Part shown: positions 574 through 26,773 of the stretch, piece after piece | How the letters are laid out: the number at the start of each line of letters is the position of its first letter | Numbering within the stretch: position 1 is the first letter of the stretch | NCBI GenBank assembly: GCA_016869895.1 | Contig: VGDC01000001.1 | Span: 1-31,845, forward strand | Direction of reading: 5' to 3' | Length of the DNA: 31,845 nt | Source of the DNA: Alphaproteobacteria bacterium | GTDB taxonomy: Bacteria; Pseudomonadota; Alphaproteobacteria; Rickettsiales; VGDC01 | The notes under the pieces: generated by a model | The model's database searches: none | The model's input: only the letters and a program-made list of their open reading frames with translations | Told to the model about the DNA's origin: nothing | Made by a program: the position numbers and the translations under genes

Positions 574-642
574 GTGAGCCATCAGCCCGCGAAGCGGCGC
601 GCCATTGAGAAATCAGGAGATTTCGCAGGGCGCAATCAAAGC

Positions 643-2260
<1,618 letters not shown>

Positions 2261-6108: not shown

Positions 6109-7560
6109 TCATTCAACCTTCGCGTCAGTCGGAATGGTCACGAAGGAGTTGTTGCCCGAACGCCAGACACGCAGCAACACATGCTTGCGCCCTGCCTTCT
6201 TGGCGGATTCGATGGCTTTCTTGTATTCTGCCAGTGAAGCCACATCCGCGCCGTTCACCTGCTGCACCACATCGCCGAAATTCAGGCCTTGTTTGGCGGC
6301 TTCGCTCTCGGCTTTCAGCTCCACGATGACCAGACCTTTCACATCCTCCGGCAGCGCGAATTTCTTGCGCAGCGGCGCGTCGATGGGCGCGATGCTCATC
6401 CCCGCGACCGAATAGGTCTCCATGTCCTGCTTCTCGATTTTCTGGCCTTTGTCGTCTTCCTTCACGGCGACGGTCTCTTCCTTCAATTCACCGAGGGTGA
6501 CGGGGATTTTGGTCTCCTTGCCATTACGCAGCACGGTCAGCTGCACCTTCGCGCCGATCTTGCTTTCGGCGACCATCCGCGGCAGGAAGCGCATCTCGGC
6601 GATGTCCTTGCCATCGAATTTGGTGATGACATCGCCCGTCACGATGCCTGCTTTCGCGGCAGGGCCTTCGGCGTTCACATCCGCCACCAGCGCGCCGTTG
6701 GTGTTCTTCAGGCCGAGGCTATCGGCGATTTCAGGGGTCACGGGCTGGATGGTCACGCCCAGCCAGCCACGGAAGGTGCGGCCATGCTCCTTCAGCTGCG
6801 CGATGACCGATTTGGCCAGCGTCGCAGGCACGGCGAAGCCGATGCCGATGCTGCCGCCCGTGGGCGAGAAGATGGCGGTGTTGATGCCGATGACTTCGCC
6901 TTTCAGGTTGAACAACGGGCCGCCGCTGTTGCCACGGTTGATGGAGGCATCCGTCTGGATGAAATCATCGAAAGGCCCTGCATTGATGTTGCGCGCGCGG
7001 GCGGAGATGATACCCGCCGTCACCGTGCCGCCGAGGCCGAAGGGGTTGCCCACCGCGATGACCCAATCACCCACGCGGGCGGTGTCGGAATCACCGAAGC
7101 TTACAGCGGGCAGGGGCTTCTCGGTCTTCACTTTCAGCAGCGCGATGTCCGTCTTCGGGTCATGGCCGACGATCTCCGCATCCAATTTCGTGTTGTCGCT
7201 CAGGGTCACATGCACTTCCGTGGCATCGGCGATGACATGGTTATTGGTGACGATGTAGCCCGTGGGGTCGATGATGAAACCCGAACCGAGGGATTGCACA
7301 TCGCGCTCCTGAGGCATAGGCGTCGCGCCGGGGGGCATCATGCGTTCAAGGAACTGGCGGAGCTGTTCGTCGTTCTCCAGCCCTTCGATGCTCGGCACGC
7401 CAGCGCGTCCTTTCACCTTCTGGGTGGTGGAGATGTTCACGACCGCAGGGGTCATGGTCTCCACCTGATCGGCGAAGGATTCGGGGGCGGGTGCGGCGAC
7501 TGCGGCAAGCGGAGTGGACACACACAGCAGTGCGGCGGCGACGAGAAGCGAGCGTTTCAT
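6109..7560 (-). CDS. degP: Do/DegP-family periplasmic serine protease with two PDZ domains
   Basis: Signal peptide MKRSLLVAAALLC (start placed at 7560); GSGFII, TNNHV, D-x-ALLK, IQTDASINRGNSGGPL; follows hflKC as in other alphaproteobacteria. Confidence 0.93.
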   Translation of the reverse strand: MKRSLLVAAALLCVSTPLAAVAAPAPESFADQVETMTPAVVNISTTQKVKGRAGVPSIEGLENDEQLRQFLERMMPPGATPMPQERDVQSLGSGFIIDPTGYIVTNNHVIADATEVHVTLSDNTKLDAEIVGHDPKTDIALLKVKTEKPLPAVSFGDSDTARVGDWVIAVGNPFGLGGTVTAGIISARARNINAGPFDDFIQTDASINRGNSGGPLFNLKGEVIGINTAIFSPTGGSIGIGFAVPATLAKSVIAQLKEHGRTFRGWLGVTIQPVTPEIADSLGLKNTNGALVADVNAEGPAAKAGIVTGDVITKFDGKDIAEMRFLPRMVAESKIGAKVQLTVLRNGKETKIPVTLGELKEETVAVKEDDKGQKIEKQDMETYSVAGMSIAPIDAPLRKKFALPEDVKGLVIVELKAESEAAKQGLNFGDVVQQVNGADVASLAEYKKAIESAKKAGRKHVLLRVWRSGNNSFVTIPTDAKVE

Positions 7561-7770
7561 AGGATGTGACTCCCTAGGCGGTGGTTTGTCGGATGACATA
7601 CGTCGAACATTCTTCATTTTGCCGTGCGCTTCGTTATCCTTCGGATTCGCCATGCTCATGTATGGATATACACTCCGCATGGCTCACCTCGGCTGCCTAG
7701 CGCACAACAAAAGCAAACATGTTCTAACCGACACATAATCCTCCTCGGAGGACATTTCAAGACGGAAGAC

Positions 7771-8709
7771 TTACGGTTTGACTTCCTTCAGGTACTTCAG
7801 GAACTCGTTGTCGGGCGTGAGCACCATGGTGGTGTCCTTGCCGTCCAATACCTGACGGTAAGCTTGCAGCGTGCGGTAGAAGTCATAGAACTCCTTATCG
7901 CGGCTGAAGGCCTCGGCGTAGATCTTGGTGGAGACGGCATCGGCCTCACCGCGCGTCACCTCGCCGGTCTTGCGGGCTTCGGCGATGATTTCGGCGCGTT
8001 CACGTTCCGCACGGGCGCGGATGCGCTGTGCCGCTTCCTCACCCTGCGCGCGCAATTCCTTCGCTTCGCGGGCACGGTCGGTCTGCATACGCTGATAGAT
8101 GGCTTCGCTGTTCGTCTGCGGCAGGTCGGCGCGTTTGATGCGCACGTCCACCACTTCGATGCCGAAACCGCCCAGTTTGGCGACCTGACGCGCCGCATCG
8201 GAGACGTTCTCGTCATCGGCGCGGAAGGTGCCGCTCGCCTGCTGGTTCACCTCGGCGAGAATATTCTCCATGATTTTATTACGGGTCGGCGAGAGCAGCG
8301 CGTTCAGCGGATAGCTGCCCACGACCTTTTTCAGCGACGATTCCAGAATGTCGTTCAGGCGGTCACGCATGCCGCGCTCGTTCTGCACGGTCTGATAGAA
8401 ACGCAGCGGGTCGGTGATGCGGTAACGCACGAAGGCATCGATGATGACGCGTTTCTGGTCGGATGCGTTGATCTCCTTCGATTCCGCATTGAAGTCTATC
8501 AGGCGGTTATCGAAGATGATGACGTTCTGCACGAAGGGCAGTTTGAAGTGCAATCCGGGTTCTTTCTTCACATCCACCGCACGGCCGAATTCAAGGACTA
8601 AGCCCTGTTCCACCTGCGTGACGATGAATAGCGAGTTCAGTGCAGCGAATGCACCGATGACGAGGACGGCGATAAGCCCATAACGGGTATTGCTACGTTT
8701 CGCGGCCAT
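7771..8709 (-). CDS. hflC: FtsH modulator HflC (SPFH domain)
   Basis: N-terminal TM, EPGLHFKLPF, YRITDPLRFY, GIEVVDVRIKRADLP, RMQTDR, FYDFYRTLQAY. Confidence 0.95.
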   Translation of the reverse strand: MAAKRSNTRYGLIAVLVIGAFAALNSLFIVTQVEQGLVLEFGRAVDVKKEPGLHFKLPFVQNVIIFDNRLIDFNAESKEINASDQKRVIIDAFVRYRITDPLRFYQTVQNERGMRDRLNDILESSLKKVVGSYPLNALLSPTRNKIMENILAEVNQQASGTFRADDENVSDAARQVAKLGGFGIEVVDVRIKRADLPQTNSEAIYQRMQTDRAREAKELRAQGEEAAQRIRARAERERAEIIAEARKTGEVTRGEADAVSTKIYAEAFSRDKEFYDFYRTLQAYRQVLDGKDTTMVLTPDNEFLKYLKEVKP

Positions 8710-9782
8710 TACTGCTGCCCTCCCTGTCTTTTCTTGATTTCAGGCAATGCCATATACGGTACCACGCCTGCGCCACCCTCACCGAGGATGACCTTATCCA
8801 TGCCCTTCATCGTCTCTTCCAGCGTCTCTAGGTACAGACGCTTGCGGGTGATGTCCTTGGCTTGGCTGTATTCGGTGTAGATGGCTTTGAAGCGCGATGC
8901 GTCACCTTCCGCACGGTTGGTCACTTCGGCGCGATACGCCTCGGCTTCCTGCAACACACGTTCCGCTTCACCACGGGCGCGGGGCAGGATTTCGTTCGCG
9001 TAAGCCTGCGCTTCGTTGATGGAGCGTTCCTGGTCGGCCTTCGCCGCCTGCACGTCACGGAAGGATTCGATGACAGCGGATGGCGGGTCGGCGCGCAGCA
9101 GCGTCACGCGGTCGATCTGGATACCTGCCTTATAGCTGTCGAGCGTCGCTTGCAGCAGGGCCTTGTTCTCGTCCTCGATGTCCTGTTTACCACCGGTCAA
9201 CGCGCTGGTGAGCGGGCGTTTGCCGATGACTTCGCGCATAACGCTTTCCGCCACGTCACGCACGGTGAGTTCGGGGTTGCGCAGGTTGAAGAGGAAGTTC
9301 TTCGCGTCCTTGATTTTCCATTGGACGTTGAAGGTGATGTCGATGATGTTCTCGTCGCCCGTCAGCATCAGGCCTTCTTCGGGCACGCTCTGCTCACGGC
9401 CAGTGCCGCTGCCGCCGTAAGTGCGGTAACCGATTTCGATACGCTGCACGCGGGTCACCGGAGGGGTGAAGACGGTTTCGATAGGGGATGGCAGGTGATA
9501 GCGCAATCCGGGTTCGGTGGTGCGGTCATACTGACCGAAGCGCAGCACGACGCCCTGTTCTTCCGGCTCGACGCGGTAGATGCCCGATGCCAGCCACAGG
9601 CCGACGGCGGCCAAGGCCACAAGGCCGATGAGTTTGCGGTTGCCGCCACCGGGCACGAAGTCGCGGAATTTCTCCTGACTGCGGCGGATGATGGCGTCGA
9701 AATCATCGTTGGACGGGGGAGGGGGCGCGCTGGGGCCTTTGCCCCATGGTCCACCGGAGTTGCCGCCTCTGCCTTTATTCAT
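8709..9782 (-). CDS. hflK: FtsH modulator HflK (SPFH domain)
   Basis: Start MNKGRGGNSGGPWG with GAAGGAG RBS; GVVLRFG, MLTGDENI, FRDVQAAKAD, TRKRLYLET; stop overlaps the hflC start. Confidence 0.95.
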   Translation of the reverse strand: MNKGRGGNSGGPWGKGPSAPPPPSNDDFDAIIRRSQEKFRDFVPGGGNRKLIGLVALAAVGLWLASGIYRVEPEEQGVVLRFGQYDRTTEPGLRYHLPSPIETVFTPPVTRVQRIEIGYRTYGGSGTGREQSVPEEGLMLTGDENIIDITFNVQWKIKDAKNFLFNLRNPELTVRDVAESVMREVIGKRPLTSALTGGKQDIEDENKALLQATLDSYKAGIQIDRVTLLRADPPSAVIESFRDVQAAKADQERSINEAQAYANEILPRARGEAERVLQEAEAYRAEVTNRAEGDASRFKAIYTEYSQAKDITRKRLYLETLEETMKGMDKVILGEGGAGVVPYMALPEIKKRQGGQQ

Positions 9783-9897
9783 CTTCGTCTCCTTCACTGG
9801 TCTTCGGTGCGCTTCTGTGGTGTGGGCTTGAACCCGCGCCCGAAATGGCCTATGGTCTGCACCCTGTTTAACGAATAATCCAAGGACTGGCAAGGAA

Positions 9898-10935
9898 ATG
9901 TCGCCCCTTTCGCGTGAAACCGTCCTCTCTGCGCTGCGCGCCGTGGCTGATCCTGCCACAGGGCAGAATGTCGTGGATTCCGGCATCGTCTCCGGCGTGG
10001 TCGTGCGCGGTGGGAATGTGGGCTTCCTCGTGAATGCCACGCCGGATTCCGCTGCCGCCATGGAACACATCCGCCGCGAATGCGAGCAGAAAGTCTCGCT
10101 TCTGCAAGGGGTGGAGAAGGTGACGGCGGTGTTGACCGCCGAGCAGCAATCCTCTGCTCCCGCGCCGGAAAAAGAAAAACCCTCCCAGTGGAACCGCACG
10201 CCCATCGAAGGCGTGAAGCATTTGGTGGCCGTGGCATCCGGCAAGGGCGGAGTGGGGAAATCCACCACCACGGTCTGCCTCGCTCGCGCCTTCGCGGAGA
10301 AAGGGCTGCGCGTGGGCATCTTGGACGCCGATATCTACGGCCCGTCCATCCCCCTTATGCTCGGCTTGAAAGGCCAACCACAGGTGAAGGACGGCAAGCT
10401 CGTGCCCGCCGTTTCGCGCGGCATTTCCTGCATGTCCATGGGGCTGCTGATGGGGGATCAAGCCGCTGTCATGCGCGGGCCGATGATCACCAAAGCCCTC
10501 AACCAGATGCTCCGCGCCGTGGCATGGGGCGAGTTGGACGTGCTCTTAGTCGATATGCCCCCCGGCACGGGCGATGTGCATCTTTCATTGGCGCAGCAAG
10601 CGCCCCTTTCCGGCGCAGTGGTGGTGACGACCCCGCAGCGCGTGGCGACCATCGATGCGCAAAAAGCCGTCGATATGTTCCGCAAAGTCGGCGTTCCCGT
10701 GCTCGGTATCGTCGAGAACATGAGCTATCTCGAAGCGGAAGGGCAGCGCGTTCAGCCCTTCGGGCAAGGCGGTGGCGAGGCATTGTCCAAGCAGATGGCC
10801 ACACGCTTCTTAGGCGACGTGCCGCTGGTTCCCGTGCTCGGCGCCGCACTCGATGGCGGGCAGGAATTCGCCATTCCTGAAGCGTTAAGCGACATCGCCG
10901 CAAAGATTCTGGAGCAGCTCCCCTTCCGGATGTGA
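9898..10935 (+). CDS. mrp: Mrp/ApbC (NBP35 family) Fe-S cluster carrier ATPase
   Basis: VASGKGGVGKST, DADIYGPSIP, DMPPGTGD, VTTPQ, GIVENMS; N-terminal DUF59-like segment. Confidence 0.94.
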   Translation: MSPLSRETVLSALRAVADPATGQNVVDSGIVSGVVVRGGNVGFLVNATPDSAAAMEHIRRECEQKVSLLQGVEKVTAVLTAEQQSSAPAPEKEKPSQWNRTPIEGVKHLVAVASGKGGVGKSTTTVCLARAFAEKGLRVGILDADIYGPSIPLMLGLKGQPQVKDGKLVPAVSRGISCMSMGLLMGDQAAVMRGPMITKALNQMLRAVAWGELDVLLVDMPPGTGDVHLSLAQQAPLSGAVVVTTPQRVATIDAQKAVDMFRKVGVPVLGIVENMSYLEAEGQRVQPFGQGGGEALSKQMATRFLGDVPLVPVLGAALDGGQEFAIPEALSDIAAKILEQLPFRM

Positions 10936-10986
10936 GGTTTCCCTGTTTAGCTGGAAAGACAAACCAGCCAGAATAAGGAAAAGAAT

Positions 10987-11505
10987 ATGGCCAATCCGCA
11001 CCGCGGCGAGGTGACACTCACCTTCGCCGGAAGAACTTGCACCCTCCGCCCCACCTTCCATATCCTCGCTACCTTAGAGCAACGCCTCGGCCTCACCCTT
11101 TCGCAGCTGCTTTGCAGGGTCGAAGATAAGGGATTATTGGCGAGCGAAATGCTCATCATCCTTTCCCTCGCCACGCGGCATGATGGCTCTGCGCCATTCG
11201 ATTCCGATGCAGCGATGCGTCTTCCCGCCGAAGACGATTCCCTCAAAAAAGCCATGCCTTTTATCGCGCGTTTTCTCATCGGCGCGATGGGCGGTGAACC
11301 CTCCCTCGATTTTCCTCGCCTGATGCATCTGGCACAGGTGAATCTGGGTATCAATCCCGAAGAATTCTGGAAAATGAGCATTGTTGAATTATCCGCGCTC
11401 CTTGCACCCGTTTCGGCTAGGGTCGATGCTTCAAGAGGCGCAGAAATACCGCAGTCAGAGCTATATGCCCTGATGGCACAATTTCCCGATAATCATGCAG
11501 CATAA
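10987..11505 (+). CDS. GTA-type tail assembly chaperone: RcGTA g10-like N-terminus fused to g10.1/TAC-like C-terminus
   Basis: N-terminus MANPHRGEV...LRPTF..LA.LE resembles g10; C-terminus LDFPRLM...LGINPEEFWKMSIVEL...LMAQFPD resembles g10.1 chaperones. Confidence 0.8.
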   Translation: MANPHRGEVTLTFAGRTCTLRPTFHILATLEQRLGLTLSQLLCRVEDKGLLASEMLIILSLATRHDGSAPFDSDAAMRLPAEDDSLKKAMPFIARFLIGAMGGEPSLDFPRLMHLAQVNLGINPEEFWKMSIVELSALLAPVSARVDASRGAEIPQSELYALMAQFPDNHAA

Positions 11506-12002
11506 TGGGGGTAAGTATGAGTGAATTGCGATTAAGCGATGTGGTGCGCACGGAAGTCGAACAATTGGAACAATACGGCGAAGCGGCACAGGAATTTTTC
11601 ATCACTTTGTCAGGTGAAATCCGCGAAGAGTTCAGCGCGTCCTTAAACAAAATCCTCACAGGTGAATTGGCGAATTTCCAGACGCAGGCCAACCGTTCTT
11701 TGGCGACTTCGGGTTATACCACGGCAGGCAATCTGCTCGGCAATCTCGCGGGGGATTTGCTGGGAGGATTACTGCCCGATAACCTTTTCGGCGGGGTGTA
11801 TGGCGCGGCCATCAACGGCGCGGTGCGCGCGGCGGTGTCGGATTATCTGCGCACCGGATCGGTGGATATGCGCCGTGTGGTGACGGGCGCGAACAGCAGC
11901 GGCGGCAGCGTGCTTTCCCGCCAGAACAGCCTGAATCTCAGCGCAGGCCAACAATCCGCCGAAGCCGCCGCCGCGCTCCAGCGCGCACAGCGCAATCTTT
12001 AA
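11505..12002 (+). CDS. Short GTA-like tail tape-measure protein (g11-like)
   Basis: Coupled to the chaperone gene (TAATG overlap); Gly/Leu/Ala-rich middle; C-terminus SAGQQSAEAAAALQRAQRNL resembles g11 C-termini. Confidence 0.65.
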   Translation: MGVSMSELRLSDVVRTEVEQLEQYGEAAQEFFITLSGEIREEFSASLNKILTGELANFQTQANRSLATSGYTTAGNLLGNLAGDLLGGLLPDNLFGGVYGAAINGAVRAAVSDYLRTGSVDMRRVVTGANSSGGSVLSRQNSLNLSAGQQSAEAAAALQRAQRNL

Positions 12003-14065
12003 GGCAGCACCTGCACATCGCGCTTCACCGCAGGGGGCAGGGCTTCCGATTTCGGATTCACTTCTTCCTGCGGTGTTTCTGCGGGTTTGGCGGGTTCACT
12101 CACTGCTTTCGACGTGTTCTCATTGGCGGGGATGAGTGCCTTCTCGCCCTTGCGGGTCGTCTCCGCCTTCGCCTGCGCGATGAGGGCTTTGCAGTTGCTA
12201 TCCTTGCCTTGACCGGGGTCGATGAACGCGAGGATACCCGCCACCGGAGTCAACACCGCCGACAAAGCCAGCGCCGCCCCGCCGCGCGCCGCCAGAGGCA
12301 TCGCTTCCACCCCCGGACTGGGGGATTTCAGCGTGCCTTTCACCGTGATGGGCGTGCGCAGCGACACCAGCGACACGTCCTTCGGCTGCGGCACGAAACG
12401 CAGGTTCATCGCTTCCGTCTCAAGGTCTATCGTACCTTCGCCTTGGATGTTCGTGTCATCCGTATCGATGACGAGGGTTTTCGAGTTCAACACCCCGTCC
12501 TTCACATCGAAATGCCCGAGGATGCAGTTCACCGCCACGGTTCGGTCGCCGCCGCCGAGGAACACCCCGACGGACTGGAAGACGTCCAGCCCCGCCAGTT
12601 CCACCAGCAGGTGGCTGATGCGCCCACCATCCATGCCGATGCCCACCGTGCCGTTGGAGGTGGAGAGGATTTCATGCAGGCTCGCACCTTTCCCCTCCAG
12701 CTTCGCCGCCCCGCCGATGTACCCTTCCGCTTCGCCGAGGCTTCCCAACAGTTCATTCAGCGACAGGCGCGTGAAGCGGAAATCCGCCTGTGCGGCCATC
12801 GGCTGCTGGCGCGAATCCACCCGCATGGTCAAGGCCACATTGCCTTTCGCCGTCCCGAATTTCACGGGGTCGATGCGCAGGATGCGGTCATCCAGCGTCA
12901 CATGCAGGAAGAAATCATCCAGCGGCCAGCCCGGCGCGATGATGGATTTGCCGGTCAGCGTCACATCCGCATCCATCGCGGAAAGGCGGCTGACATCCAG
13001 CGGCACATCGGGGATAGCGCGCGGGCTTTGCGCCTGTTTCGCGGCTTCTGCCTTCTGTTCTGGGGTCACCGCCTCTTCCGGCGCAAGGCCGATGAGCGGG
13101 CCAAGGTCGTTGAAGTCCAGCTTCTGCGACACGAAATGCGCCGTCAGTTTCGGGCGGTCGCCGGTGGGATCCCACGTCAGATCCCCGCCGATATCGCTAT
13201 TACCCATCGTGCCTTTGAACGGGTTGAACCGCCAGATAGCATCCGCATAGTTTAGCTGTCCAGTCACCTCATAAGGGGGGGTAGGGGGCAGGGCGATACC
13301 GAAGATGGGGAAGAGGTCAGCTGCGTTGCCGCCTTTGATGGATAGGTTGATGTCCATCCCTGCGAAATTGGTGGGGTCTTGCACCGTGCCTTTGGCTTTG
13401 ATGTCCGTGTGGCCGATGTTCAGCGCGATGTCCACGGGGAAGGGCTTGTCCTCCTGCACGGTCAGCAGCGAGCCGCCGGTGGCCTTCAGCAGGAACGGGT
13501 TCTTCTGGTAATTCCCCTTGCCGCTCACATGGATGTTCTCACCCTCGGTGCGCGCTTCGATGTTGATGTCGATGTCCTGCAAGGCATCCAGATATGCCAC
13601 GCTGCTATTTTCGATATGCAACTGGCCGATGACGGGCATATCCGCCTCATCCTGATTACCGCGCTCCGGCTTCTCTTTACCCAGCGACCAGTTCGCGTCG
13701 CCATCGCCTTTGCGCTCCAGCGATACTTGGCTATCCACCAGCACGATTTTCGGGAACACCAGATCGCCGATGAGCAGCGGCAGCGGCTTCACGGAAATCT
13801 CGAACCGCCCGATATCCGCCATATTCTCCGCGCGACCGCCCTCGAAATTGGCGATGCGCAGTTCCGTCACCCGCAAGGTCGGTGGCCACGCGGGCAGGAA
13901 TCCGATGCCGCCTTTCAGCTCCACCTCGCGGTCGAGCGCGTTCGTGGCGATTTGCGAGATGTGTCGCTTGCCGCTGTCCGTGTTCGCATAGAGCAACACC
14001 CCTGCGGTGAGGACAAGCAGAAGAACGAGCAGACCGAAGAGGCCGAGGAGGATTTTTTTCAGCAT
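11999..14065 (-). CDS. AsmA-family (YhjG-like) membrane-anchored protein
   Basis: N-terminal TM, R..DG.ANW motif, G..G.SD..G.L, C-terminal DT.DT.I.G.G.IDL..E...L...P.PKD.SL.SLRTPI.V.GT. Confidence 0.88.
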   Translation of the reverse strand: MLKKILLGLFGLLVLLLVLTAGVLLYANTDSGKRHISQIATNALDREVELKGGIGFLPAWPPTLRVTELRIANFEGGRAENMADIGRFEISVKPLPLLIGDLVFPKIVLVDSQVSLERKGDGDANWSLGKEKPERGNQDEADMPVIGQLHIENSSVAYLDALQDIDINIEARTEGENIHVSGKGNYQKNPFLLKATGGSLLTVQEDKPFPVDIALNIGHTDIKAKGTVQDPTNFAGMDINLSIKGGNAADLFPIFGIALPPTPPYEVTGQLNYADAIWRFNPFKGTMGNSDIGGDLTWDPTGDRPKLTAHFVSQKLDFNDLGPLIGLAPEEAVTPEQKAEAAKQAQSPRAIPDVPLDVSRLSAMDADVTLTGKSIIAPGWPLDDFFLHVTLDDRILRIDPVKFGTAKGNVALTMRVDSRQQPMAAQADFRFTRLSLNELLGSLGEAEGYIGGAAKLEGKGASLHEILSTSNGTVGIGMDGGRISHLLVELAGLDVFQSVGVFLGGGDRTVAVNCILGHFDVKDGVLNSKTLVIDTDDTNIQGEGTIDLETEAMNLRFVPQPKDVSLVSLRTPITVKGTLKSPSPGVEAMPLAARGGAALALSAVLTPVAGILAFIDPGQGKDSNCKALIAQAKAETTRKGEKALIPANENTSKAVSEPAKPAETPQEEVNPKSEALPPAVKRDVQVLP

Positions 14066-25860: not shown

Positions 25861-25927
25861 GAATTCACCCCTTCCGGGTTTGCTGTTATCGCCTCAAGAT
25901 GGATGAAACATTCATGATGAGGTCGTT

Positions 25928-26773
25928 ATGCACTCAATCCATCCATCGGATTATCAAAAAGCCTTCGTGCGTTATCTGCGCAAAGGAATTCCCCTTGATG
26001 TCGCATTAAAGGCGCCATCAAGCGAACACACTACAACTCACTACATCTGGCGCACGTCTGGTGATGATAAGGTTAGGAATGCCCACGCGGTCAACAACGG
26101 CAAACTATTTCGTTGGGATGTGCGTCCATCCACCGGACATCCGGGCGAGGATTATAATTGTCGTTGCAAAGCGGAGCCGTTCATTCCAGGTGAGAGTGAG
26201 TATGCATATCAAATACTATTGCAGCCAGAGCGTGATGTGGAAAATAAATGGACAGCAGCCAAATTCATTAGACATTACTACTTTGGTGGCGGAAGAACAC
26301 TTGAGTTACAAGAAACGGGGCATCTCCTAGCGATTATCAATTACTATTTATACTATATAAAACGTCAGGGAGCGGACAGTAGAAGCCGGGTGAATTCTGA
26401 AATAATTACTGCTGCTCGTAAGCGACAGAGTGGGGGTTTCACCCATAATTTTTATAATTCATACACCGAGTTTGGTGATTATTTTTGGCCGTTTGGTGGT
26501 GGAAAGGTAAGCGGCTTATTCACAGGAGACGTTCATCATAAAAACGGCATGCTAAGTATCCAAGGAACTATTAATTACAAGTATGCAGATATTTTCACAG
26601 ATCCGGTTAATTTGAGAGAAGATTTTTACCATGGCACATCAGACCCAGCCGAAGCATCTATATTGGCTCTAATGGTAACTGATGCGCTTGGTGTGCACTT
26701 TGATGTAGTCGGGCGGTGGGAGACGCAATTCTCAGCGGAAGTAAGATTAGATGCTGAAAATAGCATGTACTAA
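25928..26773 (+). CDS. MuF (phage head morphogenesis) domain protein with a C-terminal extension; candidate polymorphic toxin
   Basis: YIWRTSGDDKVR..H..NNGK.F.W......HPGEDYNCRC.AEP MuF signature; GAGGT RBS; sampled lines have 23/60 and 24/60 G+C. Confidence 0.82.
   Translation: MHSIHPSDYQKAFVRYLRKGIPLDVALKAPSSEHTTTHYIWRTSGDDKVRNAHAVNNGKLFRWDVRPSTGHPGEDYNCRCKAEPFIPGESEYAYQILLQPERDVENKWTAAKFIRHYYFGGGRTLELQETGHLLAIINYYLYYIKRQGADSRSRVNSEIITAARKRQSGGFTHNFYNSYTEFGDYFWPFGGGKVSGLFTGDVHHKNGMLSIQGTINYKYADIFTDPVNLREDFYHGTSDPAEASILALMVTDALGVHFDVVGRWETQFSAEVRLDAENSMY

What the first reader, a model, noticed from the sequence alone, without database searches (positions are those of the whole stretch)
10987..11505. 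GTA tail chaperones g10 and g10.1 fused in frame (a hard-wired gpGT)
Seen: one uninterrupted ORF joins an MANPHRGEV g10-like domain to an LDFPRLM...LGINPEEFWKMS.VEL...LMAQFPD domain, with the junction near GAMGGEPS. Established: long-tailed phages make gpG and gpGT through a programmed frameshift, with G in excess, and RcGTA encodes g10 and g10.1 as separate ORFs. Inference: this lineage makes only the GT form, or makes the short form in reverse by shifting at CTC AAA AAA (about 11242-11250). Either would be an unusual tail-assembly solution.
Basis: partly seen in the sequence, partly recalled or inferred. Interest (0 to 1): 0.65.

Follow-up and report, generated by a model that had tools for sequence, protein, structure and literature searches.

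The report
Fused GTA tail chaperone gene
In this lake bacterium, the two tail-assembly chaperones of a domesticated phage-like particle (a gene transfer agent) are permanently joined in one gene beside their client, a small tape-measure gene; this is a real, conserved variant of a system that normally uses a ribosomal frameshift or two separate genes, but it is not unique.

Summary
ORF 10987-11505 (172 aa) carries GTA g10 (PF11836, residues 6-102) and g10.1 (PF09550, residues 107-169) in one frame.

It is not an assembly error:
- Contigs from four runs show no indel.
- Seven orthologues (about 44-86% identity) from independent assemblies have the same fusion. Five share the hflK-mrp-[fusion]-[~160-aa ORF]-asmA neighbourhood; in the two most distant ones, two genes lie between mrp and the fusion and the downstream neighbour differs.
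- Both halves are under purifying selection.

The next ORF is a miniature g11 tape measure. The pair is an islet of a GTA dispersed over at least four loci.

In 50 class-level g10/g10.1 loci, g10.1 lies in the -1 frame in 41. These have either a slippery heptamer and no start codon (lambda G/GT style) or an ATGA overlap (RcGTA style). Only this genome and one same-order genome were fused.

The fusion is still not unique. About 39 of the 150 best 50%-identity protein clusters are fused. The cultured Rhodobacter phage RcapNL has an unannotated single-ORF 190-aa equivalent.

The proposed reverse shift at CTC AAA AAA is not supported: it is out of register, lies inside the g10 domain and is not conserved.

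Earlier scan reports found the -1 frameshift form in other genomes, and one unchecked note describes another in-frame case.

Verdict: a new variant of a known kind, of moderate interest.

The parts
10987..11505 (+). Fused tail assembly chaperone gene g10::g10.1 (172 aa), one open frame
   Evidence: ORF list and sequence; both Pfam domains; orthologues carry both domains; no indel in contigs of 4 runs; dN/dS 0.07-0.19 for the N half and 0.11-0.5 for the C half in most pairs
11002..11292 (+). g10 (gpG-like) domain, PF11836
   Evidence: the AF2 model has a beta-hairpin at 9-20 followed by helices; BFVD matches to annotated 110-130-aa tail assembly chaperones
11293..11304 (+). Junction or linker (…GAMGGEPS…). 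Orthologues carry 0-26 extra residues here
   Evidence: Alignment A1; codon alignment
11305..11493 (+). g10.1 (gpT-like) domain, PF09550, ending in the conserved LMxxFPD motif
11242..11250 (+). CTC AAA AAA run proposed as a reverse shift site; not a conserved or in-register slippery site
   Evidence: Sequence; codon alignment of 8 orthologues and heptamer scan
11517..12002 (+). Miniature g11 tape measure gene. 161 aa from ATG 11517, which matches the start of the closest orthologues; the frame is also open from ATG 11505 (165 aa)
   Evidence: Sits directly after g10.1 as in canonical clusters, where g11 is 160-235 aa. hhalign against 20 canonical g11: probability 91%, E 1e-6, with a shared C-terminal ...QRNL end. 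dN/dS 0.04-0.24
10921..10929 (+). CCCTTCCGG motif about 55 nt upstream of the start codon; possible promoter element, function unknown
   Evidence: Present upstream of the fused gene in 7 of the 8 orthologous loci whatever the upstream gene, with L045 carrying the one-base variant CCCTTCCGC. Not enriched genome-wide
9898..10935 (+). Upstream flank: mrp/apbC (a host gene, not part of the GTA)
   Evidence: Pfam ParA/NUBPL plus FeS_assembly_P
11999..14065 (-). Downstream flank: asmA, convergent (a host gene, not part of the GTA)
   Evidence: ORF; AsmA Pfam annotation of the orthologous gene in L048, L049 and L051

Best explanation
The gene encodes a hard-wired gpGT-type tail assembly chaperone of an RcGTA-like gene transfer agent. 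The g10 (gpG-like) and g10.1 (gpT-like) domains are joined by a short flexible linker and translated as one polypeptide, with no recoding.

It forms a two-gene module with the next gene, a miniature g11 tape measure. This module separated long ago from the rest of a GTA gene set now scattered over several chromosomal loci, and it has been inherited vertically next to mrp.

By analogy with lambda G/GT, the N domain would hold the tape measure and the C domain would recruit the tube protein g9. Here every chaperone copy carries the recruiting domain.

Shown: the fused architecture, its conservation, purifying selection, the absence of a conserved shift site or internal start, the g11 identity of the neighbour, and the dispersed but complete-looking GTA gene set.

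Inferred: that only the long form is made, the binding roles of the two domains, and that particles are still produced.
For: - Both domains are over the Pfam cut-offs in one frame.
- There is one copy in the genome.
- Seven orthologues at about 44-86% identity from independent assemblies are all fused. Five share the neighbourhood degP-hflC-hflK-mrp-[fusion]-[160-166-aa ORF]-asmA; in L045 and L046 two genes lie between mrp and the fusion, the next ORF is 173-174 aa, and the downstream neighbour is not asmA.
- No gaps in contigs of 4 runs.
- dN/dS is well below 1 in both halves and in the neighbour.
- No in-phase X_XXY_YYZ heptamer occurs in the window gene and none is conserved among orthologues. 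The Met at the junction is Leu, Ala or another residue elsewhere, so there is no conserved internal start.
- The neighbour is g11: hhalign probability 91%, with a shared ...QRNL C-terminus.
- The other GTA genes are intact elsewhere: TerL on C50; portal to g9 on C65, ending against a convergent host ORF 4 bp after the g9 stop; g12-g13 on C91; g14-g15-DUF2793 on C74.
- A fused form is compatible with working tails. Cultured phage RcapNL has a single 190-aa ORF at the chaperone position that matches the model over 185 columns (TM 0.67) and the family profile over 162 columns.
- The fused form is widespread.
Against: - There is no protein or transcript evidence. The one RNA-labelled run that holds the locus cannot show transcription.
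- In lambda, both gpG and gpGT are needed in a skewed ratio (established knowledge, not tested here), so a GT-only system needs explaining.
- The C half evolves faster in one lineage (L048 against L049, dN/dS about 1).
- Two orthologues (P0008, P0009) lack the C-terminal LMxxFPD motif.
- Proteolysis in the linker, or non-canonical recoding, cannot be excluded from sequence.
- The genome is an 89.75%-complete MAG of 377 contigs, so some of the locus splits could be contig breaks. The islet itself and the 3' end of the head locus are bounded by host genes.
Confidence: 0.72

Rival explanations
1. Both a long form and a short form are still made, by a route other than the canonical -1 shift into g10.1. 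Candidate routes are a reverse shift to an early stop (as in dnaX), internal initiation that gives free g10.1, or proteolytic cleavage in the variable linker.
For: The linker is variable and probably exposed. In G001 the linker holds A_AAA_AAT followed by TAA in the -1 frame, which would give a 125-aa product. L048 and L049 have T_TTT_TTG at residue 96. About 10 of 26 canonical loci already make g10.1 as a free, ATGA-coupled protein, so a free T domain is tolerated in this family.
Against: No in-phase slippery heptamer exists in the window gene, and none is shared across the eight orthologues. The A6 run is out of register, lies inside the g10 domain and is not conserved. The junction Met is not conserved and has no Shine-Dalgarno sequence. 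Six A's are too few for efficient transcriptional slippage (general knowledge).
Confidence: 0.15
2. The islet is a decaying relic of a lost GTA or prophage and has no function.
For: It is isolated from the other tail genes. Loss of GTA tail genes is reported in related reduced genomes (PMC9254644).
Against: dN/dS is 0.04-0.24 in most comparisons. The frame stays intact across orthologues down to 44% identity in a stable chromosomal position. All other head-tail genes in the genome have intact frames.
Confidence: 0.04
3. The chaperone plus mini tape measure pair has been taken over for a host function unrelated to GTA tails, for example one linked to the neighbouring AsmA-type envelope genes.
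For: The islet is stably linked to asmA here. A distant fused homologue (P0074) sits next to a YdbH-like (AsmA-family) operon.
Against: In L045 and L046 the neighbours differ. Other fused homologues sit directly after g9. The rest of the GTA set, which needs a chaperone and a tape measure, is present, and no other copy exists.
Confidence: 0.05
4. The fusion is an assembly or sequencing artefact, namely an indel at a former slippery site.
For: Single-contig fused proteins elsewhere in databases could arise this way. P0012, from the same clade, looks frameshifted.
Against: Eight independent assemblies and four runs agree with no gap, including variants at 92% and at 86-44% identity.
Confidence: 0.01

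Closest known systems
Phage lambda gpG/gpGT tail assembly chaperones (conserved -1 programmed frameshift of long-tailed phages)
   Same: Two-domain logic, with a G-like domain followed by a T-like domain, and a position immediately upstream of the tape measure gene. Annotated phage tail assembly chaperones are the best fold matches.
   Different: There are no overlapping ORFs, no slippery heptamer and no frameshift, so no built-in G:GT ratio. There is no detectable sequence similarity, and the solved HK97 chaperone 2ob9 matches only at Z 3.0. The gene is not next to the major tail gene.
RcGTA g10 (rcc01692) and g10.1 (rcc01693)
   Same: The same Pfam families, PF11836 and PF09550. The gene is followed by a g11 homologue.
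   Different: In RcGTA-type loci the two are separate ORFs with an ATGA stop-start overlap. In many other Alphaproteobacteria g10.1 has no start codon and lies behind G_GGA_AAG or a similar heptamer. Here they are one ORF, away from g9 and g12.
Rhodobacter phage RcapNL gene RcapNL_00016 (190 aa, annotated as hypothetical)
   Same: A single ORF at the chaperone position after a GTA-orfg9-like tail gene. PF11836 covers the N half. The profile and the fold match across both halves.
   Different: It is a free phage with a longer tape measure region. tblastn with the window protein found no match in the phage collection. Its C half does not reach PF09550.
Small-cluster (dispersed) GTA gene sets of Rickettsiales and Rhodospirillales
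   Same: GTA head-tail genes are split into several chromosomal loci and kept under purifying selection (PMC9254644; here).
   Different: The papers I could read do not mention the chaperone genes or a fusion. They report tail genes as often missing, whereas here the full tail set is present.
E. coli dnaX tau/gamma (a frameshift to an early stop makes the short form)
   Same: An A-run is followed by a nearby out-of-frame stop.
   Different: The window's run is not in the A_AAA_AAG register and is not conserved. No stimulatory structure was sought, given the lack of conservation.

Membership tests
PF11836 Phage_TAC_11 (GTA g10) | Profile match above the curated cut-off | tested here: met
   51.3 bits against 27.8, residues 6-102, profile positions 1-95 of 96
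PF09550 Phage_TAC_6 (GTA g10.1) | Profile match above the curated cut-off | tested here: met
   46.2 bits against 23.4, residues 107-169, profile positions 1-58 of 58
TIGR02216 rcc01693 family (equivalog of RcGTA g10.1) | Score above the equivalog cut-off | tested here: not met
   27.5 bits against 56.1. It is a related domain, not a strict equivalog
Lambda-type G/GT chaperone pair | Two overlapping ORFs joined by a -1 frameshift at an X_XXY_YYZ site | tested here: not met
   Single ORF. No in-phase heptamer in the window gene and none conserved in 8 orthologues
Lambda-type G/GT chaperone pair | Located between the major tail gene and the tape measure gene | tested here: inconclusive
   Directly upstream of g11. 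However, g9 lies on another locus that ends against a host ORF
Lambda-type G/GT chaperone pair | Tail assembly chaperone fold | tested here: inconclusive
   BFVD matches to annotated chaperones have probability 1.0, E 5e-3 to 1e-2 and TM 0.5-0.6 over the target. Foldseek against the PDB finds nothing. HK97 chaperone 2ob9 scores Z 3.0, within noise
Lambda-type G/GT chaperone pair | The G domain binds the tape measure; the T domain binds the tube protein | not testable with these tools
   Needs binding assays or complex modelling
RcGTA-like gene transfer agent | Homologues of the head-tail genes are present with intact frames | tested here: met
   TerL on C50; portal, protease, capsid, g6, g8 and g9 on C65; g10::g10.1 and g11 on C1; g12 and g13 on C91; g14, g15 and DUF2793 on C74
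RcGTA-like gene transfer agent | One contiguous head-tail cluster of about 15 kb | tested here: not met
   The islet is flanked by mrp and asmA, and the head locus ends at g9 against a convergent ORF. This is the small-cluster type
RcGTA-like gene transfer agent | Particles that package random host DNA | not testable with these tools
   The organism is uncultured (a lake-water MAG)
GTA g11 tape measure (the neighbouring ORF) | Homology to the g11 of canonical clusters and a position after g10.1 | tested here: met
   hhalign probability 91%, E 1e-6, columns 20-165 against 35-213, with a shared ...QRNL terminus. The HMM built from 20 canonical g11 scores only 8-21 bits. No Pfam family matches

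The most novel reading that the evidence does not exclude
A GT-only chaperone is sufficient to build a short GTA tail. If so, the skewed G:GT ratio that the frameshift enforces in lambda-type phages is not a universal requirement. The way the two chaperone domains are expressed (frameshift, coupled ORFs or covalent fusion) would then be evolutionarily interchangeable, with the fused chaperone and its mini tape measure acting as a self-contained, relocatable tail-length module.
Probability: 0.5. Interest if true: 0.55.

Novelty: new variant of a known kind. Interest (0 to 1): 0.42.

Why it matters
The G/GT frameshift is one of the most conserved recoding events in tailed phages. In lambda, both products and their ratio matter.

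A conserved natural fusion, under purifying selection in a genome that keeps all other tail genes, argues that the ratio rule can be bypassed, at least for short tails with a tape measure of about 160 aa.

The survey also shows that GTA-type chaperones switch among three expression modes. This bears on how these genes should be annotated: many g10.1 genes have no start codon, and some "hypothetical" 170-200-aa proteins, including RcapNL gene 16, are single-chain chaperones.

RcapNL and its laboratory host offer a practical system for testing whether a covalent GT alone suffices.

Tried and rejected
- **Reverse shift at CTC AAA AAA:** rejected. It is out of register, lies inside the g10 domain and is not conserved.
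- **Internal start at the junction Met:** rejected. The residue is Leu, Ala or another residue in the orthologues and has no Shine-Dalgarno sequence.
- **Assembly artefact:** rejected.
- **Pattern scan of genome contigs with the family alignment:** returned only a spurious 25-residue Kocuria match.
- **tblastn of the protein against 50,697 phage records:** no match. The RcapNL link came from fold search only.
- **PDB sequence search and Foldseek against the PDB:** nothing. VIA-align returned only weak rows, with 2ob9 at Z 3.0.
- **Sigma-70 promoter and intrinsic terminator scans around the islet:** none found.
- **CCCTTCCGG upstream motif:** not enriched genome-wide (49 found against about 36 expected by my own base-composition estimate). 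The longer form did not single out GTA loci convincingly.
- **Plain HMM of canonical g11:** scored the neighbour only weakly. Profile-profile comparison was needed.
- **Literature:** searches found no description of a g10/g10.1 frameshift or fusion in GTAs. The library lacks most subscription journals, so this is not proof of absence.
- **G-domain tree:** weakly resolved (107 columns, 8 starred branches), so the number of independent fusions is bounded only as 3 or more, and at most about 15.

Full report
**1.

The window has an uninterrupted ORF from ATG 10987 to TAA 11503-11505, 172 aa.
- Pfam places PF11836 (Phage_TAC_11, GTA-gp10) on residues 6-102 (E 1.3e-13) and PF09550 (Phage_TAC_6) on residues 107-169 (E 6.1e-12). 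Both are well over their curated cut-offs.
- The NCBIfam model for rcc01693, the RcGTA g10.1 protein, matches residues 108-168 but scores below its equivalog cut-off.
- It is the only copy of either domain in the genome, a MAG of 2.09 Mb, 377 contigs and 89.75% completeness.
In an alignment of ten family members, all length variation (0-26 residues) falls just after ...GAMGG, as expected for a linker between two domains.

**2. It is not an artefact, and it is maintained by selection**

- A search of 5.8 billion proteins found eight relatives at 44-86% identity, all annotated with both Pfam domains.
- I fetched the DNA of six of them, and of the same-family genome G001. All come from different assemblies.
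- Five of these loci (L048, L049, L050, L051 and G001) share the neighbourhood degP-hflC-hflK-mrp-[fusion]-[160-166-aa ORF]. A convergent asmA follows in L048, L049 and L051, where rsmJ, brkB and a Na/H exchanger lie beyond it; in L050 and G001 the sequence ends before the downstream gene can be named.
- In the two most distant loci (L045, L046) two extra genes lie between mrp and the fusion, the next ORF is 173-174 aa, and the downstream neighbour is a giant protein, not asmA.
- Contigs from four sequencing runs laid on 10700-12100 show no insertion or deletion inside the ORF. These include a 92%-identical strain that spans the whole gene with 65 substitutions and no gap. The source is a lake-water metagenome.
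- Nei-Gojobori dN/dS is 0.07-0.19 for the g10 half and 0.11-0.5 for the g10.1 half. One pair reaches about 1 for the g10.1 half. The downstream ORF gives 0.04-0.24.

**3. What surrounds it**

The downstream ORF is a miniature g11 tape measure. It is most likely 161 aa from ATG 11517, the start used by the closest orthologues.
- It sits where g11 sits in canonical clusters.
- Its size is at the low end of 20 canonical g11 proteins that I extracted from loci next to g10.1 (160-235 aa).
- Profile-profile comparison gives 91% probability (E 1e-6) over residues 20-165. The two families also share a distinctive C-terminus ending ...QRNL.

The flanks are host genes: mrp upstream and a convergent asmA downstream.

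The rest of the GTA gene set is present with intact frames, but elsewhere:
- TerL is on contig C50.
- Portal, protease, capsid, g6, g8 and g9 are on C65. A convergent non-GTA ORF ends 4 bp after the g9 stop, so no g10 follows g9.
- g12 and g13 are on C91.
- g14, g15 and a DUF2793 gene are on C74.

This matches the "small cluster" GTA organisation reported for Rickettsiales and Rhodospirillales (PMC9254644). The chaperone and its client have stayed together as one unit.

**4. What is normal for this family**

I searched 401 genomes of the same class with both Pfam models and compared frames.
- Of 50 loci with both domains, g10.1 lies in the -1 frame relative to g10 in 41, in the +1 frame in 5, and in the same frame in 4.
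- Of the 4 same-frame loci, only this genome and G053 (same order) share one open frame.

I inspected 26 of the -1 loci and found two layouts:
- About ten have an ATGA or GTGA stop-start overlap, so g10.1 has its own start.
- About fifteen have no start codon in the g10.1 frame but do have an in-phase slippery heptamer in the overlap: G_GGA_AAG, C_CCT_TTC, A_AAA_AAG, A_AAA_AAA or A_AAC_CCT. This is the lambda G/GT arrangement.

Earlier reports of this scan reached the same reading of the frameshift form in other genomes. So three expression modes exist, and the fusion is the rare one in this sample.

Within the window's own order, 251 genomes were sampled and 32 had a match:
- Full-length single-frame fusions occur in six genomes of three families: G000, G001, G467, G053, G541 and G493.
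- Other members have adjacent separate genes.
- Several AT-rich genomes have g10 directly after the capsid gene and g10.1 one to two kb away.

**5. The fusion is not unique**

- An exhaustive profile search of 1.84 billion representative proteins gave 643 hits.
- With domain HMMs built from the canonical loci, 39 of the 150 best clusters carry both domains in one chain. Pfam confirms this for several.
- A tree of the g10 domain is weakly resolved. The fused state is strongly clustered on it: 15 changes against 41 when the labels are shuffled, and well-supported branches force at least 3 changes.
- The window sits in a 17-member clade with 15 fused members. A second clade of 16 is entirely fused.
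- Contexts vary: directly after g9 (P0031, P0019, P0016) or as an islet (P0074).

**6. Structure and a cultured example**

- AlphaFold2 with 40 fused sequences gives a confident model (pLDDT 90.4, pTM 0.78): a beta-hairpin followed by helices.
- Solved structures gave nothing significant. The HK97 chaperone 2ob9 scores only Z 3.0.
- The viral model library returned annotated tail assembly chaperones of 110-130 aa for the N half.
- The top hit was a 190-aa protein of Rhodobacter phage RcapNL, aligned over 185 columns with TM 0.67.
- In the RcapNL record this is gene 16, annotated as "hypothetical". It is a single ORF directly after the GTA-orfg9-like major tail gene and before the tail and tape-measure genes.
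- It has PF11836 in its N half, and it aligns with the fused-family profile over 162 columns, including the T part (probability 89.8%).
- So a single-chain G+T chaperone exists in a phage that makes working virions.

**7. Can a short form still be made?**

The proposed site CTC AAA AAA (11242-11250) fails on four counts:
- It is read as C_AAA_AAA, so the P-site tRNA would not re-pair fully after a -1 slip.
- A slip there would end at TGA 11295-11297 and give a product of about 102 aa.
- The site lies at residues 86-87, inside the g10 domain, and a slip would replace the domain's last helix.
- None of the seven orthologues keeps it.

No in-phase heptamer exists in the window gene, and none is shared by the family. 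The Met at the junction is not conserved.

G001 has A_AAA_AAT followed by TAA in the -1 frame inside its longer linker, but this is a single case. Cleavage in the linker cannot be judged from sequence.

**8. Conclusion**

This is most likely a functional, hard-wired GT-type chaperone that works with the adjacent mini tape measure in a dispersed GTA (confidence about 0.7).

The reverse-shift idea is not supported, and the rarity is overstated.

I found no paper describing a fused g10/g10.1, or the frameshift, in GTAs, but the searchable library is incomplete.

I class it as a new variant of a known kind, of moderate interest. The main value is as a natural test of whether the G:GT ratio is needed. 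Phage RcapNL offers a tractable system for that test.

Noticed in passing
window 10921-10929; L048, L049, L050, L051, L045, L046, L004 upstream of the fused gene: CCCTTCCGG lies about 50-70 nt upstream of the fused gene's start in 7 of the 8 orthologous loci, whether that DNA is the end of mrp or intergenic DNA after a different gene; L045 has the one-base variant CCCTTCCGC. A yTTAG-like element follows about 16 nt later. This could be a dedicated promoter for the islet.
   Followed up: partly
window 25869-25881; G000 C65:509 and C65:1032: The longer form CCCCTTCCGGnTT also precedes the MuF-like ORF at 25928. It occurs twice, within a roughly 60-nt repeated element, upstream of the GTA head genes on C65. 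The 9-mer is not enriched genome-wide, so the link is unproven.
   Followed up: partly
G000 contigs C50, C65, C91, C74 (loci L062, L013, L014, L015): The GTA gene set is spread over at least four or five loci. A lipoprotein-like ORF on the opposite strand sits between g14 and g15 on C74. Three large ORFs (557, 559 and 419 aa) with no Pfam match precede g12 on C91.
   Followed up: partly
L016-L044 (canonical g10/g10.1 loci of the class): Two canonical layouts coexist. One has g10.1 with no start codon behind an in-phase slippery heptamer (G_GGA_AAG is the commonest). The other has g10.1 with its own start in an ATGA overlap. Five loci have g10.1 in the +1 frame; I did not examine these.
   Followed up: partly
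L053 (G048), L054 (G016), L055 (G028): AT-rich genomes of the same order have a rearranged cluster: capsid, then g10, then an ORF of about 190 aa, then a separate 66-69-aa g10.1 (seen in G016 and G048; in G028 it lies outside the fetched stretch), then g6-g7-g8-g9 where these could be read. The chaperone genes therefore sit ahead of the connector and tube genes.
   Followed up: no
L004 (G001:C117) 593-1219 minus strand; G001:C75:16039-16647: The same-family genome has a 26-residue longer linker containing A_AAA_AAT followed by TAA in the -1 frame, which is a possible dnaX-like truncation to 125 aa. It also has a second full-length fused copy on another contig, plus partial copies nearby.
   Followed up: no
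L061 (JQ066768, phage RcapNL) 10354-10926: Gene RcapNL_00016, annotated as hypothetical, is a single-ORF 190-aa tail assembly chaperone with a G-like and a T-like half. The record annotates no frameshift.
   Followed up: partly
L059 (P0074 locus) 7238-9600; window 11999-14065: A distant fused chaperone islet lies just downstream of a YdbH-like (AsmA-family) gene, a lipoprotein gene and a DUF1318 gene. The window's islet abuts asmA. This may be coincidence.
   Followed up: no
L052 (G053:C3) 8108-10639 minus strand: In G053 the fused chaperone is followed by ORFs of about 183, 152 and 331 aa. The last contains a DDAFRHAY motif, which resembles a GTA tape-measure unit with an exchangeable head described in an earlier scan report (e1-3554833).
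   Followed up: no
P0008, P0009 (L045 10001-10423): Two fused orthologues are only 140 aa and end right after the FWxMT helix. They lack the conserved LMxxFPD tail of the g10.1 domain.
   Followed up: no
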